From assembly GCA_043822705.1 (NCBI GenBank), contig JBDRBK010000099.1, forward strand, positions 1 through 41,874: a stretch of DNA of 41,874 nt. The letters are read 5' to 3'. Every line of letters begins with the position of its first letter. Positions within the stretch are counted from its first letter, which is position 1. The position numbers are program-made. This document shows positions 18,001-24,000 of the stretch, one piece after another. The stretch is from Fidelibacterota bacterium. GTDB lineage: Bacteria > Fidelibacterota > Marinisomatia > Marinisomatales > TCS56.

Positions 18001-21000
18001 CCGTCGGTGGCGGCGTCGCCCTGCGGGCTTCATTCCTGATCGATGAAGAAGGAATCGTGCGGCATGCCGTGATCAATGATCTGCCGCTGGGGCGGAATGT
18101 CGATGAAATGCTGCGGATGGTGGACGCCCTGACATTCAATCAGCGGCATGGCGAAGTCTGTCCCGCCGGCTGGGAAGATGGTCAGGATGGAATGAAAGAC
18201 ACCGCCGAAGGCGTCGCCAGTTATTTGAATAAACACGCAAGCGACCTGTAAGCTTGTTTGCGCACCAGCGGGTGGCGGGGTTCGCCCTTCCCCGTGACCC
18301 GCACTTACTGTCTTTTCGGCTGATTTGCATTTAAATTCCAATTTATCAGGAGAACAGAAAAATGGAACATCAATTACCAAAACTGCCTTGGGGCGATACG
18401 GCCCTGGAACCACATATTTCCCGGGAAACGATCGCCTATCATTACGGCAAGCACCACCAGGCCTATGTGACCAATCTGAATATACTCGAGCCCGGTACCG
18501 AGTTTGAAAATCTGACGCTGGTCGAGATCATCAAGCAGGCACCCGCCGGTGGGATATTCAACAATGCCGCCCAGGTCTGGAATCATTCCTTCTACTGGAA
18601 CTGCCTCAGTCCCAAAGGCGGCGGCGAACCAGCCGGCGCTTTGGCCAAGGCGATCGGCAAGGCTTTCGGATCGTTCGCTGATTTCAAGGAAAAATTCACC
18701 GCTTCGGCGGCTACCAATTTCGGCTCCGGCTGGACCTGGCTGGTGAAAAACGCCGCCGGTGGGCTTGAGATAGTAAATACCGCCAATGCCGGCACACCGC
18801 TTACCACTGACAAAAAGCCACTGCTGACCGTCGATGTCTGGGAACACGCTTACTACGTTGATTACCGGAATGCCCGCCTGGAATACCTGAAAAGCTTCTG
18901 GAACCTGGTCAACTGGGAATTCGTGGCAGCCAACTTAGGTTAGCTCTCAGCGGTTGCTGAGCCCGACCGCTGCAACCTGATTATCCTCCGCACACCGATC
19001 TGCCCGCAACAAGGACCGGTAGCAACGACTATTGTAAATCATTGACCGTTGCTAGCGGTCGGGCGGGCCGGATTCCCCCGGTCCGGTCGCTCGAGTGCTG
19101 TATATCTCCACACTGTAGCATTCTGCTACAGTGCTCATAAGCTCTTGTATTTTGCTGTATTAATCTTTCGACTGGTAATAGCCTGTAGTATTACTCGACA
19201 CTAATCAATATTAATATTCTTATAGTAGTGATGCTATATGTCCATATTAATATGTTGTTTATGAAATATATTTCCATGTGGCACATCAATTGCTGATTCT
19301 ATTTCAGCAACATAAAGGAAGTGTGCCATGAGTGTCATCATATTGGTAATATTCGTCTTAGCCTGTCTGAGTATCGATTATTACCTCAAAAAACGAAGAA
19401 AACGTGTGATTGAGAAAAGCCCCATCCTTCACAATAAAACATTTCAACTGCGACAAAACCGGGTGCTGGTACCCCAGGGTATCTACTTTGCTAAGTCACA
19501 CGCTTGGGCTTACCTGATAGAAACAGGCCTAGTGCGGGTTGGTCTTGATGATTTTTTAAAGCACATAATCGGCCGTGTGACCAGAATATCGGCTTCCGGT
19601 AATAATGCTTCAATCATTCAGAACGAAGCATTGTTGAATCTCGAGCAGGATGAAAAAAAACTGACGATTGCGGCTCCGATATCAGGCAGGGTAAAGCGGA
19701 TTAATCCCGAGATTCTGAATAATCCGCAAAATGCACTGGGCTTGCCTTATAAGGACCGGTGGATCTACGAACTGGAGCCCGCTAACTGGGAAGAGGAAAC
19801 AAAAAACCTTCACCTGGGGCGTACTGCTTCCAAATGGATTGAAAAGGAATTTATCCGTCTAAAGGAGTTTTTCGCCTACTTAATGAGTGGGGACGGATCA
19901 TCAAGTGCCTATGCCACCATTCTGCAGGATGGTGGGGAAATTGCTGAAAAAGTTCTGGAATATTCTGGTCAGGAGACCTGGCAGAAGTTCCAAGTGGAAT
20001 TTTTGGACCAGCAATCCTAAATACTAATTGGCAACAAATCGTGAATTCGCAGTGGGCAGGGTTTAATCTGCTGCTGCAAACCCAACTATTATAGGACAAT
20101 GGGAGTTAATGAATGAGTATCGATAGAAGAAATTTCATTAAGGCATTGGGTGTTACTGGTACCAGTTTGATCGGAGCCCGGTCACTGAACGCCAAGACAG
20201 TGAAACCATCGGTCGAAATGAAAGGCATACTGATTGACACAACTCTATGTGAGGGTTGCCAGTCATGTGAATATGCCTGTGCTGAAGCAAATAACCTTCC
20301 CGAGCCGGGGGATTACCCTGAAGCCGGTGTAAATCGTAATTTGACTACTGAACAATTGACCGTGGTTAACTGTTATGATACATCACGAGGTGAAATATAT
20401 GTAAAAAAGCAGTGTTTCCATTGTAATCAACCAGCCTGCGATGCTGCCTGTTTGACCAAGGCCATGAACAAGACTGATGATGGTCCGGTCGTCTGGCGGG
20501 AAGAAAAATGCATGGGTTGTCGCTACTGTATGATATCCTGTCCGTTTGAAATCCCGAAATTTGAATACGACAGTCCTGTCCCCAGCATAAAAAAATGCAG
20601 CATGTGCTGGGCTCGCCAGCAGGAGGGCGAACTTCCCGCTTGTGTCGAAAACTGTCCTAATGAAGCAATCCTGTTTGGGACCAGGCGGGAATTATTGGCA
20701 GAAGCCCGGCGCAGAATCAGTATTAACCCGGATCAGTACTACGATCATATCTATGGTGAAGAAGAGGCTGGTGGAACGGGAATCTTGTATCTGTCGGCGG
20801 TCTCCTTTGATGAACTGGGATTCAATACCGGAATTCAAAAGGAATCCTATCCCAAGCTGACCAAGGGTTTCCTGTACAGCGTACCGTCCATTTTTGTTCT
20901 ATGGCCGATGATGCTGCTGGGATTATACAAATCGACTAATGGAGAGCAAACTGATAATCAGGGGGAAGAGTTATGAACCATTCCGATAGCATTACCGCAG

Positions 21001-24000
21001 ACGGTGTGCGATCACAAAGTTTAGGCCGCTTTCTGCTTAACGAATTAAAGCCGAAAGGGGAAATATTTACACCATTTAATCTGATTTCGGTCCCGGTGAT
21101 TATTCTGGGATTGATCATCATCTTCATCCGGTTCTGGAAGGGTTTGGGAGCGGTAACCAATTTATCGCAAACCGTCCCCTGGGGCCTGTGGATTGGCTTT
21201 GATGTGGTTACCGGAGTGGCTTTTGCCGGCGGAGCCTACGTATTAACTTTTATGGTTTATGTACTAAATATTAAAAAATACGAGCCAATAGTGCGGGTCA
21301 CGGTATTAAATGGCTTCCTGGCCTACCTGTTTTATGCGGGAGCCTTACTATTGGATCTGGGACGCCCATGGAATGTAATAAATCCGATCATAGGTAATTC
21401 ATTCGGTACCAGCAGTGTACTGTTTCTGGTAGCCTGGCATTTCATGCTCTATATGTTTGCCACCTTGATAGAATTCTCACCGGCCATCGCCGAATGGCTG
21501 GGGATGGAACGGATCCGGCGAATCCTTAAAAGCCTGACTGTTGGCGCTGTTATCTTCGGCATTACCCTATCCACTTTGCACCAGTCCGGCTTGGGGGCCC
21601 CCTATCTGATGGCCAAGGATAAGATTCATCCACTATGGTACACGGAATTCATCCCGATCCTGTTTTTCGTATCCAGCATATTTGCCGGACTATCGATGGT
21701 CATCTTCGAAGGTTCAATTACCTACCGGGTATTTTCCCACCAGGTTTCCAAAGATGATCATCGACATCACAATGCACTGTTATTCGGACTTGCCAAAGTC
21801 TGTGCCGGAGCAATGTTCGTTTATCTGTTTCTGAAACTATTGATTCTGGCACATGAACAGCAGTGGTCCCAGCTTTCGACTGGTTTCGGGAACTGGTACC
21901 TGCTGGAAATAATTGGTTTCGTGTTGTTGCCAATGATCCTGTTTATCAGCAGTATTAAGCAACAAAATCTGATCCTTGTAAAAATCGCCTCAGTACTGAC
22001 ACTGGTGGGAATCATCCTTAACCGCTTAAATGTGACCGTAATCGGTTTTCATTGGGATGCGGCTGTACGGTATGTTCCTACCTGGATGGAAATAGTGGTG
22101 ACCTTGGCGATAATATTCATCGAAATCTGGGTTTTTCGCTGGATTGTCAACCGCATGCCTGTTTTGAATCATGCTATTCCGGCAACCAGAGCAGTTAAAA
22201 TATCAACTGATTAAGGGTATAAAAATGGAAAATTTCGTTCATACCAATATTTTTGCCACCAAAGGAATCGAATATTTAATCGTAATCGGGTTTCTGCTGC
22301 TGGTTATTCCTTTCTGGCGCTACCTAAATTCACCAGTCAGACTTTCCCCGGTGCTTGGTTTTTCCACAATTCAGGCTGCAGTGAAACGGATCACAGGCAG
22401 TATTCCCGAGGGTGTCTTCCTGGATCCGACCCATTCCTGGGCTTTTCTGGAATCATCTGGTATGGCCCGGGTCGGGGTTGATACATTCTTGTTGTCGGCC
22501 ACCGGACCGGTGAATTATCGTGAATTAAGAAATCCCGGTGATAGTATCAGTCGGGGGGATGTGATCAGCCTGCTGGAGCAGGATGGGAAACAGCTGAAAA
22601 TTTACTCTCCTATCTCCGGTGTCGTCGGGCAGCGTAACCGTAAATTGTCCAGATCATTTGAATCGAATGAGAATTTTTATTCTCAAGGCTGGCTCTACAT
22701 GATTAAACCGGATAACTGGAAACATGAGGTCGGCAAACTATTGTTTGCAAAGAAAGCCGAAGAGTGGATTAAATCAGAATTTGACCGCTTGAAGGATTTC
22801 TTTGCTTTCTCGACCAGTAAATACGGTTATAATCCGGAATTGATAGTACTCCAGGACGGTGGTGCCCTGGTGGATCAGGCGCTGGAACAGATGCCCGCGG
22901 ATATCTGGGCTGAATTTCAGACTGAATTCATTGATGCCAACAAGACTGAGTGATAACCAGCTGATCTTTATCAGGTAGAATAGTGAAAGCGAAAAATCTA
23001 AAGTGTATCTGGATGGAGGCCGGTGTTGTGGACTACCAATTATGCCGGTTGAATTTTGAATGCGAGACCTGTGATATCCATTCCAGAGTTACCAAACCCG
23101 CTATAGCAGTAGGGGTTGAGGAGTCGCGATCACAGAGATTGATTAAAATTAATTTTAAGTCACCGGCGACAGATTCATTTGTCGCCGGTGTGCAATATTA
23201 TCCGAATCATGTCTGGATTAAACGTGTCAGTCGGAATCGGGTGCTCACTGGATTGGACGATTTATTCTTTAGCCTGTGGAACGATATCAGCCGGATAATT
23301 ACCAAGGATGTTAATGCACTGCTGACAGCTAATAGCAGTTTTGCCTGGCTGACTACAGCCGATGGATTAGTGAACCTGAAACTTCCTTTCAGTGGAAAAG
23401 TGATTGCCATAAATCCACTCCTGTCCGAAGATGAAAAAAACAATCTGGAAATAATCAGGGAACTTCCGTTAGAACAACTCTGGTTACTGAAAATGGAGCC
23501 GGTGGAAGGCGTGTTAAATCAGAATACCTGGTTGACCAAACAACAGTATATCAAACAATTGATTGATGACACCAGGTTGATTCATGCCACAATTTCTAAT
23601 GATTACCAGGCCCGATCCATTCCTCCACCGGCGATGATTGAAACCCTGCAGGCTTACCAGCGAAAAACCATTACCCTGACGAGGCCGGCGCTCAAGCACC
23701 TGGTTGATAAATTATCACGCGGCACCCATCAATTTCATTAGCCGGGGAGTTGTTTTAAGACGGCTAATATATATGTAAATTTGGGCGGAGTTGATTAAAT
23801 ATTACTAATGAAACCGGAACAGATTAGCACAAGGTCCTCGATTTATCGGCGTATAATCCTTTCCTTGCTATCCATTTCCCTGGTTTTCTTCAGTCTTCTG
23901 GCCTATGTCGTTTTCAGTGTAAACCGCAACCAGTCCGAAAAAATCATCCGGCAGTGCGGTAATCGGGTATCTTTTATAATCAACCGCGCCCTGCATAAAT

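What a model noticed while it worked through the whole genome (the two positions that open the first line are those of the whole stretch)
19328..23741. Membrane-anchored, non-lipoylatable GcvH-fold proteins flank a catalytic-subunit-less NrfC/NrfD (HmcBC-like) quinone mod [...]
Three 230-242-aa paralogues with an N-terminal TM helix, a glycine-cleavage-H (GcvH) fold whose lipoyl-lysine is not conserved, and a conserved helical tail surround a Tat-exported 4Fe-4S protein and an NrfD-type membrane subunit, with no molybdopterin or haem catalytic subunit nearby. I read the GcvH-like proteins as integral subunits of a new NrfCD-type quinone-interacting complex, in which the swinging-arm fold was recruited as a docking/relay module instead of a lipoyl carrier. 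New would be a further kind of partner for NrfD modules and a lipoate-free membrane role for the GcvH fold.
Evidence so far: pfam.tsv: GCV_H on g01537 (53-172, 1e-14), g01540 (69-184, 2e-16), g01541 (56-178, 2.5e-8); g01538 Fer4_11, twin-arginine motif, 41% id to DVU_0535 (HmcB); g01539 NrfD, 41% id to DVU_0534 (HmcC). 12-sequence alignment: the place of the lipoyl-Lys is K/R/V/E/G, invariant residues are G63,H70,W72,G84,D86,P129,G132,N138,W156. AF2 model pLDDT 79: TM helix 9-35, beta-sandwich 64-162, helices 175-239. Same two-copy spacing (~2.9 kb apart) in relatives: 28 of 201 Fidelibacterota genomes searched have a best match at E<1e-45 and 3-6 matches (my count from the table of call 42); homologues also in Bacteroidales MAGs. 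neighbours.tsv: GCV_H within 2 genes of NrfD in 2606 genomes (4.7% of those with bot [...]
(Added by a program. Inside this text positions count along the whole contig: contig position 1 is position 1 of the stretch shown here. "Call 12" and the like, gene names such as g00115 and contig names such as C1 are that model's own, and its searches are not shown. The text may have been shortened before it was handed on; [...] marks where a part breaks off. The agent that wrote the report below was given it as the finding of a first reader that could run no searches.)

Follow-up and report, generated by a model that had tools for sequence, protein, structure and literature searches.

The report
Quinone module with tethered GcvH-like proteins
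A conserved, apparently undescribed eight-gene unit joins an ordinary iron-sulfur/quinone membrane pair to three proteins shaped like the glycine-cleavage H protein but without its lipoate-bearing lysine, all under its own haem-motif sensor and sigma-54 switch; the odd proteins look more like signalling adaptors than like electron carriers.

Summary
It is an eight-gene cassette (19114-27393): sigma-54 promoter, G1, HmcB-like Tat iron-sulfur protein, HmcC-like NrfD subunit, G2, G3, haem-motif sensor kinase, NtrC-type regulator and M54 peptidase.

- **Synteny:** a GcvH-like gene directly follows hmcC in 80 of 80 species-level loci and in 36 of 44 metagenome loci.
- **Confirmed:** the GcvH fold, and no lysine in the lipoyl column.
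- **Corrected:**
  - G3 has no membrane helix. It has an invariant four-cysteine motif instead.
  - The GcvH domains face the cytoplasm, across the membrane from the iron-sulfur clusters.
  - Four multihaem cytochrome genes lie 2-8 kb downstream, though this is not conserved in relatives.
- **New here:**
  - G2's anchor resembles HmcD weakly but repeatedly.
  - In relatives, the GcvH-like module and the Cys4 motif are fused to receiver domains and to histidine-kinase transmitters.

I read the three proteins as adaptors on the cytoplasmic face of HmcC that link the module to two-component signalling, not as a redox relay. Physical binding is untested, because the complex predictor was unavailable.

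My six literature searches found no description. This scan has noted the same cassette in at least 25 other genomes.

The parts
19114..19130 (+). Palindrome TGTAGCA-N3-TGCTACA, the likely binding site of the sigma-54 activator
   Evidence: It is the only match to this dyad pattern in the 3.34 Mb genome. A comparable TGT..-N-..ACA dyad lies upstream of the promoter in 49 of the 59 loci that have the promoter element.
19279..19294 (+). Sigma-54 type -24/-12 promoter TGGCAC-N5-TTGCT, ending 33 nt before the G1 start codon
   Evidence: It is the only zero-mismatch match in the window and one of three strict matches in the genome. TGGCAY-N5-TTG lies upstream of the first cassette gene in 59 of 65 loci, against a background of 0.002 per 450 bp. 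rpoN is present in the genome.
19328..20020 (+). G1: N-terminal anchor helix, KKRRKR, then a cytoplasmic GcvH-like domain and a helical tail with LQDGG (230 aa)
   Evidence: Pfam GCV_H E 6.1e-14. It is 34% identical to G2. Bacteroidales orthologues of about 560 aa carry a signal peptide and a PBP_like_2 domain before the helix.
20113..20976 (+). HmcB/HybA-like Tat-exported protein with four [4Fe-4S] motifs and a C-terminal anchor (287 aa)
   Evidence: Fer4_11 E 9.1e-20. NCBIfam HmcB 305 bits and HybA 220 bits, both below their cut-offs. The twin-arginine motif and 16 Cys are seen. The closest solved chain is FdnH 1kqf_B at E 2.9e-32.
20973..22214 (+). HmcC/HybB-like NrfD-family membrane subunit with about ten hydrophobic segments (413 aa)
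   Evidence: NrfD E 5.5e-16. NCBIfam HmcC 403 bits and HybB 252 bits, both below their cut-offs. It is 55-84% identical across 25 orthologues. No solved relative by sequence.
22225..22953 (+). G2: HmcD-like anchor helix (FATKGIEYLIVIGFL), then a cytoplasmic GcvH-like domain and tail (242 aa)
   Evidence: GCV_H E 1.5e-15. HmcD profile match at 17-18 bits, below the cut-off of 34, in 26 of 35 family members. The AF2 model has pLDDT 82 and a GcvH fold. The start is 10 nt after the hmcC stop, and the 242-aa homologues support it.
22983..23741 (+). G3: soluble protein with an N-terminal Cys4 mini-domain, a GcvH-like domain and a divergent tail (252 aa from GTG)
   Evidence: GCV_H E 1.6e-7. No TM segment. 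C8, W10, Y18, C21, C27 and C30 are invariant in 21 of 21 sequences. Homologues are 252 aa. The AF2 model has pLDDT 80, with the Cys region at 53-59.
23808..25439 (+). Sensor histidine kinase: two TM helices around a periplasmic domain with C-x4-CH-x-H, then HAMP, HisKA and HATPase_c (543 aa)
   Evidence: Pfam and hydropathy. A C-x(2-4)-CH motif occurs in the first 260 residues of 75 of 75 orthologues. Bacteroidales and the more distant forms carry an additional CxxCH. The match to Mcp40H-20_sensor is weak, E 0.003 and below the cut-off.
25429..26766 (+). NtrC-type response regulator: receiver, sigma-54 AAA+ domain and HTH_8 (445 aa)
   Evidence: Sigma54_activat E 7.7e-69, Response_reg E 7.7e-31, HTH_8 E 1.6e-13. 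Found downstream in 69 of 80 loci; I did not check why the other loci lack it.
26866..27393 (+). M54 (archaemetzincin-type) zinc peptidase (175 aa), the last conserved cassette gene
   Evidence: Peptidase_M54 E 3.9e-25. Found downstream in 64 of 80 loci. No other flanking gene recurs; the largest flank cluster covers 6 of 80 loci.

Best explanation
The finding is the front half of a self-contained, sigma-54-controlled eight-gene cassette.

**Shown**
- The gene order is G1, HmcB-like, HmcC-like, G2, G3, kinase, regulator, M54 peptidase.
- A sigma-54 promoter and a dyad site stand in front of G1.
- All three G proteins have the GcvH fold without a lysine in the lipoyl column.
- G3 is soluble and carries a Cys4 motif.
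- The synteny holds across four phylum-level groups named in the record titles.

**Inferred**
- The kinase senses periplasmic redox state through a c-type haem motif. Its partner regulator then switches on the operon.
- HmcB/HmcC act like the Hmc/Nhc/Hyb two-subunit module and exchange electrons between periplasmic carriers and menaquinone. This lineage has no cassette-encoded cytochrome. Relatives elsewhere carry a small c3-type cytochrome in the cassette.
- G2 docks on HmcC through its HmcD-like helix, G1 through its own anchor, and G3 joins them from the cytosol. Together they form a cap on the cytoplasmic face of HmcC.
- In this NrfD subgroup (QrcD, HybB, HmcC), a published model places the mouth of a proton channel on that cytoplasmic face.
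- The cap carries no electrons. It either reports the state of the module to two-component signalling or sets the module's activity in response to it.
For: **Cassette and synteny**
- In 80 species-level loci, a G gene follows hmcC directly in 80 and precedes hmcB in 70 of 70 with room. The kinase lies downstream in 75, the regulator in 69 and M54 in 64.
- In 44 metagenome loci of at least 4 kb from a more distant branch, a G gene follows hmcC directly in 36.
- No other flanking gene recurs.

**Regulation**
- A perfect sigma-54 element sits at 19279, and the dyad is unique in the genome.
- The promoter element occurs in 59 of 65 loci, and 49 of those also have a dyad.
- rpoN and ten strongly matching activator genes are present in the genome.

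**Topology**
- The Bacteroidales G1 reads signal peptide, PBP_like_2 domain, helix, basic stretch, GcvH-like domain.
- In the window, G1 has 7 K/R in the 15 residues after the helix and none before it.

**Anchor**
- The HmcD profile matches the conserved G2 helix in 26 of 35 family members, best E 9.1e-5.

**Signalling context**
- L133 encodes Cys4 + GcvH-like + tail + HisKA + HATPase_c.
- L135 encodes TM + receiver + GcvH-like.
- A profile of the Cys4 motif finds 481 representatives at E <= 1e-10.
- Of the 109 top hits scanned out of the 150 listed, 62 carry GCV_H, 7 carry a receiver domain before the motif, and 2 carry a kinase transmitter after it.

**Haem motif**
- A C-x(2-4)-CH motif is present in 75 of 75 kinases, and a second CxxCH is present outside this lineage.

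**Proton channel**
- Passages of Duarte et al. 2018 (PMC6303296) state that a conserved proton pathway runs from the cytoplasm to the menaquinone pocket in QrcD, and that most of its residues are conserved in HybB and HmcC.
Against: - No test of physical contact was possible. The complex predictor was first full and then unavailable.
- The HmcD match is below the curated cut-off (17-18 bits against 34), and it is a hydrophobic helix, so compositional bias may contribute.
- The fusions to signalling domains are few: 1 kinase and 1 receiver fusion among 44 metagenome loci, and 9 of 109 Cys4 hits. They come from a distant branch, not from this lineage.
- The helical tail shows no likeness to the kinase's own dimerisation domain or to any solved chain. 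No interaction surface can therefore be named.
- Lys122 of G2, one position after the lipoyl column, is invariant in the 14 closest orthologues. This would fit a covalent modification that my reading does not need.
- Haem binding by the kinase is inferred from a motif only. The match to the known haem-sensor family is below its cut-off.
- The periplasmic electron partner in this lineage is unknown.
Confidence: 0.45

Rival explanations
1. G1-G3 are permanent structural subunits of a new NrfCD-type respiratory complex, serving as docking or stabilising pieces with no signalling role.
For: - Synteny is strict and the genes are tightly spaced: 10 nt between hmcC and G2 here, and overlapping reading frames in distant relatives.
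- G2 has an HmcD-like anchor.
- The weak side-matches of family members are to barrel-sandwich domains of RnfC and NqrA. By recall, those are structural parts of membrane redox complexes.
Against: - This view does not explain why the same module is fused to receiver and kinase domains.
- It does not explain why G1 gains a periplasmic ligand-binding-type domain in Bacteroidales.
- It does not explain why G3 is dispensable in Bacteroidales, where a G3-type gene occurs in 7 of 80 loci.
Confidence: 0.25
2. The G proteins are modified carriers after all. The conserved hairpin lysine, one position off, bears lipoate or another acyl group, and the proteins shuttle reducing power or an acyl group at the membrane. 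One possibility is peroxide defence, as described for other GcvH-like proteins.
For: - Lys122 of G2 is invariant in 14 of 14 close orthologues. A G-K pair recurs in G1 of Bacteroidales.
- One relative fuses an acetyl-CoA-synthetase-type adenylating enzyme to the module (L106).
- A peroxiredoxin and a superoxide dismutase lie just upstream here and in L006.
- Passages of a 2026 preprint and a 2025 abstract link GcvH-like proteins to oxidative-stress defence.
Against: - The lysine is not kept in the wider family, where the position holds H, R, S or T.
- The lipoyl lysine is strictly conserved in all 18 GcvH and LbpA proteins of the preprint (passage).
- G3 has no lysine there.
- The Prx/SOD neighbours are seen in only 1 of the 80 related loci (L006).
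- By recall, moving the lysine by one residue abolishes lipoylation of lipoyl domains.
Confidence: 0.12
3. The whole cassette is a sensor rather than an enzyme. HmcB/HmcC only sample the quinone pool or periplasmic carriers, and the G proteins pass that reading to the kinase, as accessory complexes do for some other two-component systems.
For: - The cassette has no catalytic subunit.
- The kinase has a periplasmic haem motif that could exchange electrons with HmcB.
- Fusions of G-type modules to kinases exist.
- The activator's dyad site occurs only once in the genome, so the system seems to regulate only itself.
Against: - A system that regulates only its own genes has no output if it is purely a sensor.
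- HmcC and HmcB are 55-84% and 51-83% identical across phyla. That fits a working enzyme at least as well.
- Relatives carry c3-type cytochromes inside the cassette, as in the Hmc/Nhc-type complexes that earlier notes of this scan name as the closest known system.
Confidence: 0.13
4. The G proteins are assembly or export helpers for HmcB, acting in Tat proofreading or cluster insertion, and are not part of the finished complex.
For: - They are cytoplasmic and membrane-tethered, next to where a Tat substrate is handled.
- G3 has a Cys4 site that could hold a cluster.
Against: - Three paralogues with a conserved tail would be unusual for a chaperone.
- The genome's Hyb-type HybA/HybB pair on another contig has no such helper.
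- Fusions to kinases and receivers do not fit this role.
Confidence: 0.05

Closest known systems
Hmc complex of Desulfovibrio (HmcABCDEF) and its reduced forms Nhc/Ohc
   Same: HmcB and HmcC are the best-scoring NCBIfam models for the two middle genes. A small membrane element with weak HmcD likeness is encoded directly after hmcC. Some relatives have a c3-type cytochrome in the cassette.
   Different: No HmcA cytochrome, HmcE cytochrome b or HmcF CCG protein is in the cassette. Scores are below the equivalog cut-offs. The HmcD-like helix is extended by a 200-residue cytoplasmic GcvH-like protein. Two further GcvH-like paralogues, a dedicated kinase and regulator, and an M54 peptidase are added.
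HybA/HybB, the membrane module of hydrogenase 2
   Same: They are the second-best NCBIfam matches, at 220 and 252 bits. They share the Tat signal plus C-terminal anchor and the roughly ten-helix NrfD subgroup.
   Different: No hydrogenase genes adjoin the cassette. The genome's [NiFe] hydrogenase lies on another contig beside its own NrfD-family gene.
Glycine cleavage H protein (GcvH)
   Same: The fold is the same, with TM 0.81-0.83 to solved H-proteins. The core motifs HxW, G-x-D, P-x-S-G and G-W are kept.
   Different: There is no lysine in the lipoyl column. Scores are far below the GcvH equivalog cut-offs, at 32-52 bits against 116. The proteins add a membrane anchor or a Cys4 motif and a 70-residue tail. 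The genome has a separate canonical GcvH.
LbpA of the sHdr sulfur-oxidation system, and GcvH-L of Staphylococcus/Streptococcus
   Same: These are GcvH-fold proteins recruited outside glycine cleavage and encoded next to a redox system (abstracts and passages). GcvH-L (5a35) is a structural match at E 6.3e-5.
   Different: Both are soluble and are lipoylated on a strictly conserved lysine (passage). The proteins here lack that lysine, are tethered to the membrane, and sit with an NrfCD pair and a two-component system.
Accessory-protein-assisted two-component sensing (recalled examples: cbb3 oxidase with PrrBA, BceAB with BceS)
   Same: A membrane machine is encoded with, and apparently regulated by, its own kinase and regulator. 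The extra proteins are placed where they could pass on the machine's state.
   Different: The resemblance is functional only and no homology was tested. The adaptor fold (GcvH-like plus Cys4) did not appear as a signalling domain in my six literature searches.

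Membership tests
NrfC/NrfD-type two-subunit quinone module | Tat-exported ferredoxin-like subunit with four cubane-type cysteine groups | tested here: met
   Twin-arginine motif DRRNFIK and 16 Cys in four groups. Fer4_11 scores 71 bits against a cut-off of 26.
NrfC/NrfD-type two-subunit quinone module | NrfD-family integral membrane subunit encoded next to it | tested here: met
   Pfam NrfD scores 59.5 bits against a cut-off of 25.8. There are about ten hydrophobic segments. The genes overlap by 4 nt.
NrfC/NrfD-type two-subunit quinone module | A catalytic or electron-entry subunit (molybdopterin, hydrogenase or cytochrome c) in the same operon | tested here: not met
   None of the eight cassette proteins has such a domain. 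Cytochromes at 29497-35770 are on the other strand and lie on other contigs in 4 of 4 relatives that have them.
Hmc complex (HmcABCDEF) | HmcB and HmcC at equivalog level | tested here: not met
   They are the best hits but score 305 bits against 420 and 403 against 550.
Hmc complex (HmcABCDEF) | Small membrane subunit HmcD after hmcC | tested here: inconclusive
   The G2 helix matches the HmcD model at 17-18 bits against a cut-off of 34. The match recurs in 26 of 35 family members.
Hmc complex (HmcABCDEF) | HmcA multihaem cytochrome, HmcE cytochrome b and HmcF CCG-domain protein | tested here: not met
   No such domains are found in the cassette.
Hydrogenase 2 (HybOABC) | Adjacent [NiFe] hydrogenase small and large subunits | tested here: not met
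   The large subunit is found only on contig C164, beside another NrfD gene.
Glycine cleavage H protein | GcvH fold | tested here: met
   Pfam GCV_H scores above its cut-off on all three proteins. Foldseek gives E 4.3e-10 and TM 0.81 to 1onl_A.
Glycine cleavage H protein | Lipoyl-lysine at the hairpin tip | tested here: not met
   The column of the canonical K holds E, G and D. A lysine stands one position later in G1 and G2.
Glycine cleavage H protein | Equivalog-level score | tested here: not met
   TIGR00527 scores 36, 52 and 32 bits against a cut-off of 115.85.
LbpA (sHdr-associated lipoate-binding protein) | Conserved lipoyl lysine, two conserved cysteines near the termini, and sHdr genes adjacent | tested here: not met
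   No lysine in the column. G2 has no cysteine and G1 has one, in the anchor. No Hdr-type domain is in the cassette. The defining features are taken from passages of the preprint.
Two-component system with sigma-54 activator | HisKA plus HATPase_c kinase; receiver plus sigma-54 AAA+ plus HTH regulator; -24/-12 promoter; rpoN | tested here: met
   Domains are, the promoter, and rpoN.
c-type haem periplasmic sensor domain | CxxCH-type haem attachment motif in the periplasmic loop, and family-level match | tested here: inconclusive
   C-x4-CH is present here and a C-x(2-4)-CH motif in 75 of 75 orthologues, with an extra CxxCH in other lineages. Mcp40H-20_sensor scores only 18 bits against a cut-off of 27. 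Haem binding cannot be tested here.

The most novel reading that the evidence does not exclude
The lysine-less GcvH fold with its LQDGG tail, together with the C-x12-C-x5-C-x2-C mini-domain, forms a new class of signalling modules in bacterial two-component networks. In this cassette they clamp onto the cytoplasmic mouth of an NrfD-type subunit. Electron or proton flux through a quinone module is then read out, or gated, by a haem-sensing kinase. The result would be a respiratory complex with a built-in signalling cap.
Probability: 0.3. Interest if true: 0.8.

Novelty: new variant of a known kind. Interest (0 to 1): 0.6.

Why it matters
NrfC/NrfD pairs are among the most widespread building blocks of anaerobic respiration. 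Their known partners are catalytic or cytochrome subunits on the periplasmic side.

A conserved set of cytoplasmic, membrane-tethered partners with a carrier-protein fold would be a new kind of accessory for this module. Its own sensor and switch make the link stronger. The cytoplasmic face is also where a published model places the proton pathway of this NrfD subgroup.

The cassette is common. I found 476 confirmed relatives among species-level genomes and more than 574 metagenome stretches, in anaerobic Bacteroidales, Marinimicrobia, Lentisphaeria and Chlorobiota. An unknown function here therefore affects how the energy metabolism of many uncultured sediment and water-column bacteria is read.

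Two further points follow from it. The GcvH fold may have a lipoate-free role. And an uncharacterised Cys4 mini-domain appears as an output of receiver domains.

Tried and rejected
- **Complex prediction of HmcC with G2:** Binding stays untested.
- **Helical tail as a degenerate kinase dimerisation domain:** a profile comparison with the cassette kinase gave probability 0.05. A profile search of solved chains gave nothing better than E 0.21. Rejected.
- **Selenocysteine in G2 of relatives:** one search flagged 'one TGA inside' in six genomes. After fetching them, the TGA proved to be the ordinary stop codon at the end. Rejected.
- **Multihaem cytochromes at 29.5-35.8 kb as the missing partner:** in 4 of 4 relatives that have a homologue, it lies on a different contig from the cassette. 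The fifth genome gave no match. Adjacency is not conserved.
- **Strict TTGC -12 element:** found in only 6 of 66 loci. The relaxed TGGCAY-N5-TTG element then matched 59 of 65.
- **ESM Atlas on the Cys4 region:** no usable hit.
- **Expression:** no RNA holder is listed for the cassette. No reads were laid.
- **Intrinsic terminators inside the cassette:** none convincing. Three sites were found against 8.7 expected by chance.
- **First attempt to scan genomes with the 35-sequence alignment:** failed for lack of a conserved stretch. A 14-sequence alignment worked.
- **Search for longer fused forms:** returned only the PBP-fused G1 type, and candidates were capped at 8000.
- **Literature searches:**
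  - 'NrfD' + 'GcvH': 0 papers.
  - 'glycine cleavage' + 'HybA' + 'HybB': 0 papers.
  - 'NrfD' + 'glycine cleavage': 2 papers; passages read in one, the other seen only in the listing, and neither appears to bear on this.
  - 'HmcD': 119 papers; none of the 20 listed titles concerns bacteria.
  - 'GcvH-like': 6 papers on soluble lipoylated proteins.
  - 'NrfD' + 'HmcC' + 'HybB': 3 papers.

Full report
**What is there**

The stated interval holds five + strand genes.
- G1, 19328-20020, 230 aa.
- An HmcB-like protein, 20113-20976, 287 aa.
- An HmcC-like NrfD protein, 20973-22214, 413 aa.
- G2, 22225-22953, 242 aa. The 242-aa homologues support this start, which lies 10 nt after the hmcC stop.
- G3, 22983-23741, 252 aa. 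The GTG start is supported by 252-aa homologues and by a conserved cysteine that the later ATG would cut off.

Pfam places GCV_H above its cut-off on all three G proteins, Fer4_11 on HmcB-like and NrfD on HmcC-like. NCBIfam ranks HmcB (305 bits) and HmcC (403 bits) first and HybA/HybB second. All are below the equivalog cut-offs.

HmcB-like has a twin-arginine motif, sixteen cysteines in four groups and a C-terminal hydrophobic helix. Its closest solved relative is FdnH, 1kqf_B, at E 2.9e-32. HmcC-like has no solved sequence relative.

**The unit is bigger than the finding**

Three more genes follow directly:
- a histidine kinase, 23808-25439, with HAMP, HisKA and HATPase_c domains;
- an NtrC-type regulator, 25429-26766;
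- an M54 zinc peptidase, 26866-27393.

A scan of species-level genomes confirmed 476 relatives of G2 among 500 pattern matches, and kept 80 loci. Their record titles name Marinimicrobia/Neomarinimicrobiota, Bacteroidales and other Bacteroidota, one Lentisphaeria and one Chlorobiota.

Across these 80 loci:
- hmcC is present in 80, and a G gene follows it directly in 80;
- hmcB is present in 77;
- a G gene precedes hmcB in 70 of the 70 loci with room for it;
- the kinase follows in 75, the regulator in 69 and M54 in 64; I did not check why the other loci lack them;
- a G3-type gene is present in only 7, the Marinimicrobia and the Lentisphaeria.

No other flanking gene recurs; the largest flank cluster covers 6 of 80 loci.

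Among its 44 loci of at least 4 kb, hmcC is present in 42 and a G gene follows it directly in 36. The kinase occurs in 28, the regulator in 26 and M54 in 21.

In a sample of the window's own phylum, 34 of 401 genomes (G000 included) have the pair, and 16 of 190 high-quality genomes do. The pair is concentrated in a few families.

**Regulation**

A perfect sigma-54 element, TGGCAC-N5-TTGCT, ends 33 nt before the G1 start. It is the only zero-mismatch site in the window. A 7+7 dyad, TGTAGCA-N3-TGCTACA, lies 165 nt upstream of the promoter and is the only match to that pattern in the 3.34 Mb genome.

The strict -12 TTGC is rare in relatives, at 6 of 66 loci. TGGCAY-N5-TTG, however, stands before the first cassette gene in 59 of 65 loci, against a background of 0.002 per 450 bp. 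In 49 of those 59, a TGT...ACA dyad lies upstream. The genome has rpoN and ten strongly matching activator genes.

I infer that the cassette's own regulator drives the operon. That step is not shown.

**The kinase sensor**

The kinase has two hydrophobic helices around a periplasmic loop of about 155 residues. A C-x(2-4)-CH motif lies in the first 260 residues of 75 of 75 orthologues.

Bacteroidales and the distant branch carry an additional canonical CxxCH that this lineage has lost. The match to the Pfam family Mcp40H-20_sensor is weak, E 0.003 at 18 bits against a cut-off of 27. By recall, that family is the c-haem sensor of Geobacter chemoreceptors.

Haem binding is therefore a reasonable inference, not a result.

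**The GcvH-like proteins**

*Fold and lysine*
- The AF2 model of G2 from a 35-sequence alignment has pLDDT 82 and pTM 0.70. It shows a helix at 9-35, a sandwich at 64-162 and helices at 175-239.
- It matches solved H-proteins at E 4.3e-10 and below, with TM 0.81-0.83 normalised to the target.
- The genome has a separate canonical GcvH of 125 aa on another contig.
- Aligned to it, the lipoyl-lysine column holds G in G2, E in G1 and D in G3.
- A lysine follows one position later in G1 and G2. It is invariant in the 14 closest G2 orthologues but replaced in the wider family.
- The family-specific part is the tail, with W181, LQDGG at 209-213 and W228.

*Topology*
- In most Bacteroidales loci the upstream paralogue is about 560 aa; a G protein of at least 450 aa occurs in 59 of 80 loci.
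- It reads signal peptide, PBP_like_2 domain, helix, basic stretch, GcvH-like domain. PBP_like_2 scores 28 and 33 bits, above its cut-off, in two of three tested.
- This fixes the GcvH-like domain in the cytoplasm.
- In the window, G1 has seven K/R in the fifteen residues after its helix and none before it. G2 has two after and one before.

*Anchors*
- G2-type proteins share a strongly conserved N-terminus, FATKGIEYLIVIGFL.
- This segment matches the NCBIfam HmcD model in 26 of 35 family members, best E 9.1e-5. Every match is below the cut-off of 34 bits.
- By recall, HmcD is the small membrane protein encoded after hmcC in the Desulfovibrio hmc operon, the same position that G2 holds here.
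- G1's anchor does not match it.

*G3*
- G3 has no hydrophobic segment.
- It has an N-terminal motif with C8, W10, Y18, C21, C27 and C30 invariant in 21 of 21 sequences.
- That region is modelled poorly, at pLDDT 53-59, as expected for a metal site folded without its metal.

**Evidence for signalling**

Among the distant loci:
- one protein (L133) is Cys4 motif + GcvH-like + tail + HisKA + HATPase_c;
- one (L135) is anchor + receiver + GcvH-like;
- one (L106) is an acetyl-CoA-synthetase-type enzyme + GcvH-like;
- one (L148) has two GcvH-like domains.

A 35-column profile of the Cys4 motif, run against 1.84 billion representatives, found 991 proteins at E <= 0.001 and 481 at E <= 1e-10. Many carry two to four copies.

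I scanned 109 of the 150 listed with Pfam; the 41 left out are 60-128 aa.

| Architecture found | Proteins (of 109) |
|---|---|
| GCV_H | 62 |
| Receiver domain followed by the motif | 7 |
| Kinase transmitter after the motif (one also counted under GCV_H) | 2 |
| TPR only | 1 |
| Cadherin-repeat false positive | 1 |
| No Pfam family | 37 |

Both the GcvH-like module and its Cys4 companion therefore recur as inputs of kinases and as outputs of receivers. These fusions are few and come from distant relatives, so they are a pointer, not proof.

**Electron partners**
- No cassette protein carries a haem, molybdopterin or hydrogenase domain.
- In the distant branch, small c3-type cytochromes are encoded inside the cassette in L086, L091, L147 and L153 (confirmed by Pfam). 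L124 and L148 have them by motif count only.
- The window holds four multihaem cytochrome ORFs with 4 to 17 CxxCH motifs at 29497-35770 on the minus strand. One is fused to a cytochrome b domain.
- Homologues of that fusion were found in four of five relatives. In all four they lie on a contig other than the cassette's. The adjacency here looks incidental.
- The genome also has a [NiFe] hydrogenase with its own NrfD-family gene on contig C164, and a third NrfD gene on C123.

**Mechanism I commit to (confidence 0.45)**
1. The kinase reads periplasmic redox state.
2. The regulator turns on the operon.
3. HmcB/HmcC exchange electrons between periplasmic carriers and menaquinone.
4. G2 (through its HmcD-like helix), G1 and G3 form a cytoplasmic cap on HmcC.
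5. The cap couples the module to two-component signalling, in one direction or the other.

Passages of Duarte et al. 2018 (PMC6303296) give the cap something to act on. They state that QrcD takes the protons for menaquinone reduction from the cytoplasm through a conserved channel. They add that most of the channel's residues are conserved in HybB and HmcC.

Every step after the anatomy is inference.

**Rivals**

| Reading | Confidence |
|---|---|
| Purely structural subunits | 0.25 |
| Pure sensor complex | 0.13 |
| Modified carrier using the off-by-one lysine | 0.12 |
| Assembly helpers | 0.05 |

**Known or new**

None of my six literature searches found a description of this arrangement; their terms and counts are listed under Tried and rejected. 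The six 'GcvH-like' papers concern soluble, lipoylated LbpA and GcvH-L. I saw only listings, abstracts and passages, not whole papers or supplements. Subscription journals are not covered.

This scan has met the same cassette before, on other DNA. A word look-up returned 25 notes from at least 25 genomes, and a sequence look-up returned one. Those notes agree on the anatomy, the cytoplasmic orientation and the lack of a published description. Two of them already lean to a signalling role.

- the recurrent HmcD-profile match of the G2 anchor;
- the correction that G3 is soluble with a Cys4 motif;
- the census of that motif, with its receiver and kinase fusions;
- the genome-wide uniqueness of the activator site;
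- the check that the neighbouring cytochromes are not syntenic.

**Verdict**

The cassette is a new variant of the Hmc/Hyb-type quinone module, with an undescribed family of accessory proteins. Its function remains open.

Noticed in passing
window 29497-36929 (minus strand): A cluster of four multihaem cytochrome c ORFs with 11, 17, 4 and 11 CxxCH motifs. One is fused to a cytochrome b561-type membrane domain and one has MtrC/MtrF-like domains. A 390-aa ORF without any Pfam family follows. The cluster looks like an extracellular or periplasmic electron-transfer conduit.
   Followed up: partly
window 17607-18943: A 1-Cys-type peroxiredoxin and an Fe/Mn superoxide dismutase sit directly upstream of the cassette. 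The same pair is upstream in L006 but not in the other loci.
   Followed up: partly
P0068, P0077, P0087, P0091, P0128, P0177: Response regulators whose only part after the receiver domain is two copies of the C-x12-C-x5-C-x2-C mini-domain. This output domain has no Pfam family.
   Followed up: partly
L106 6298-8865: One metagenome cassette encodes an 855-aa fusion of an acetyl-CoA-synthetase-type adenylating enzyme to a GcvH-like domain. The layout resembles an adenylation domain joined to a carrier. It is a single case and a sequencing error is not excluded.
   Followed up: no
window 8001-16000 versus 20001-32000: GC content is 56-60% in the first stretch and 41-46% in the second, within one contig. 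The assembly has 6% estimated contamination, so a chimeric join or a transferred island is possible.
   Followed up: no
window 4230-8893: A 1044-aa hybrid kinase with PAS, GAF, HisKA, HATPase and two receiver stretches, followed by an Hpt-GGDEF-receiver protein. Together they form a separate phosphorelay to c-di-GMP synthesis.
   Followed up: no
G000 contig C164, about 13388-16079: The genome's [NiFe] hydrogenase large subunit lies next to its own NrfD-family gene in a Hyb-type arrangement. The cassette's HmcC-like protein is therefore a separate paralogue.
   Followed up: partly
window 37316-38917 and 40338-41807: MerR and Rrf2 regulators and a universal stress protein lie beyond the cytochrome cluster. 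At the window's end is a protein with a type IX secretion C-terminal sorting domain.
   Followed up: no
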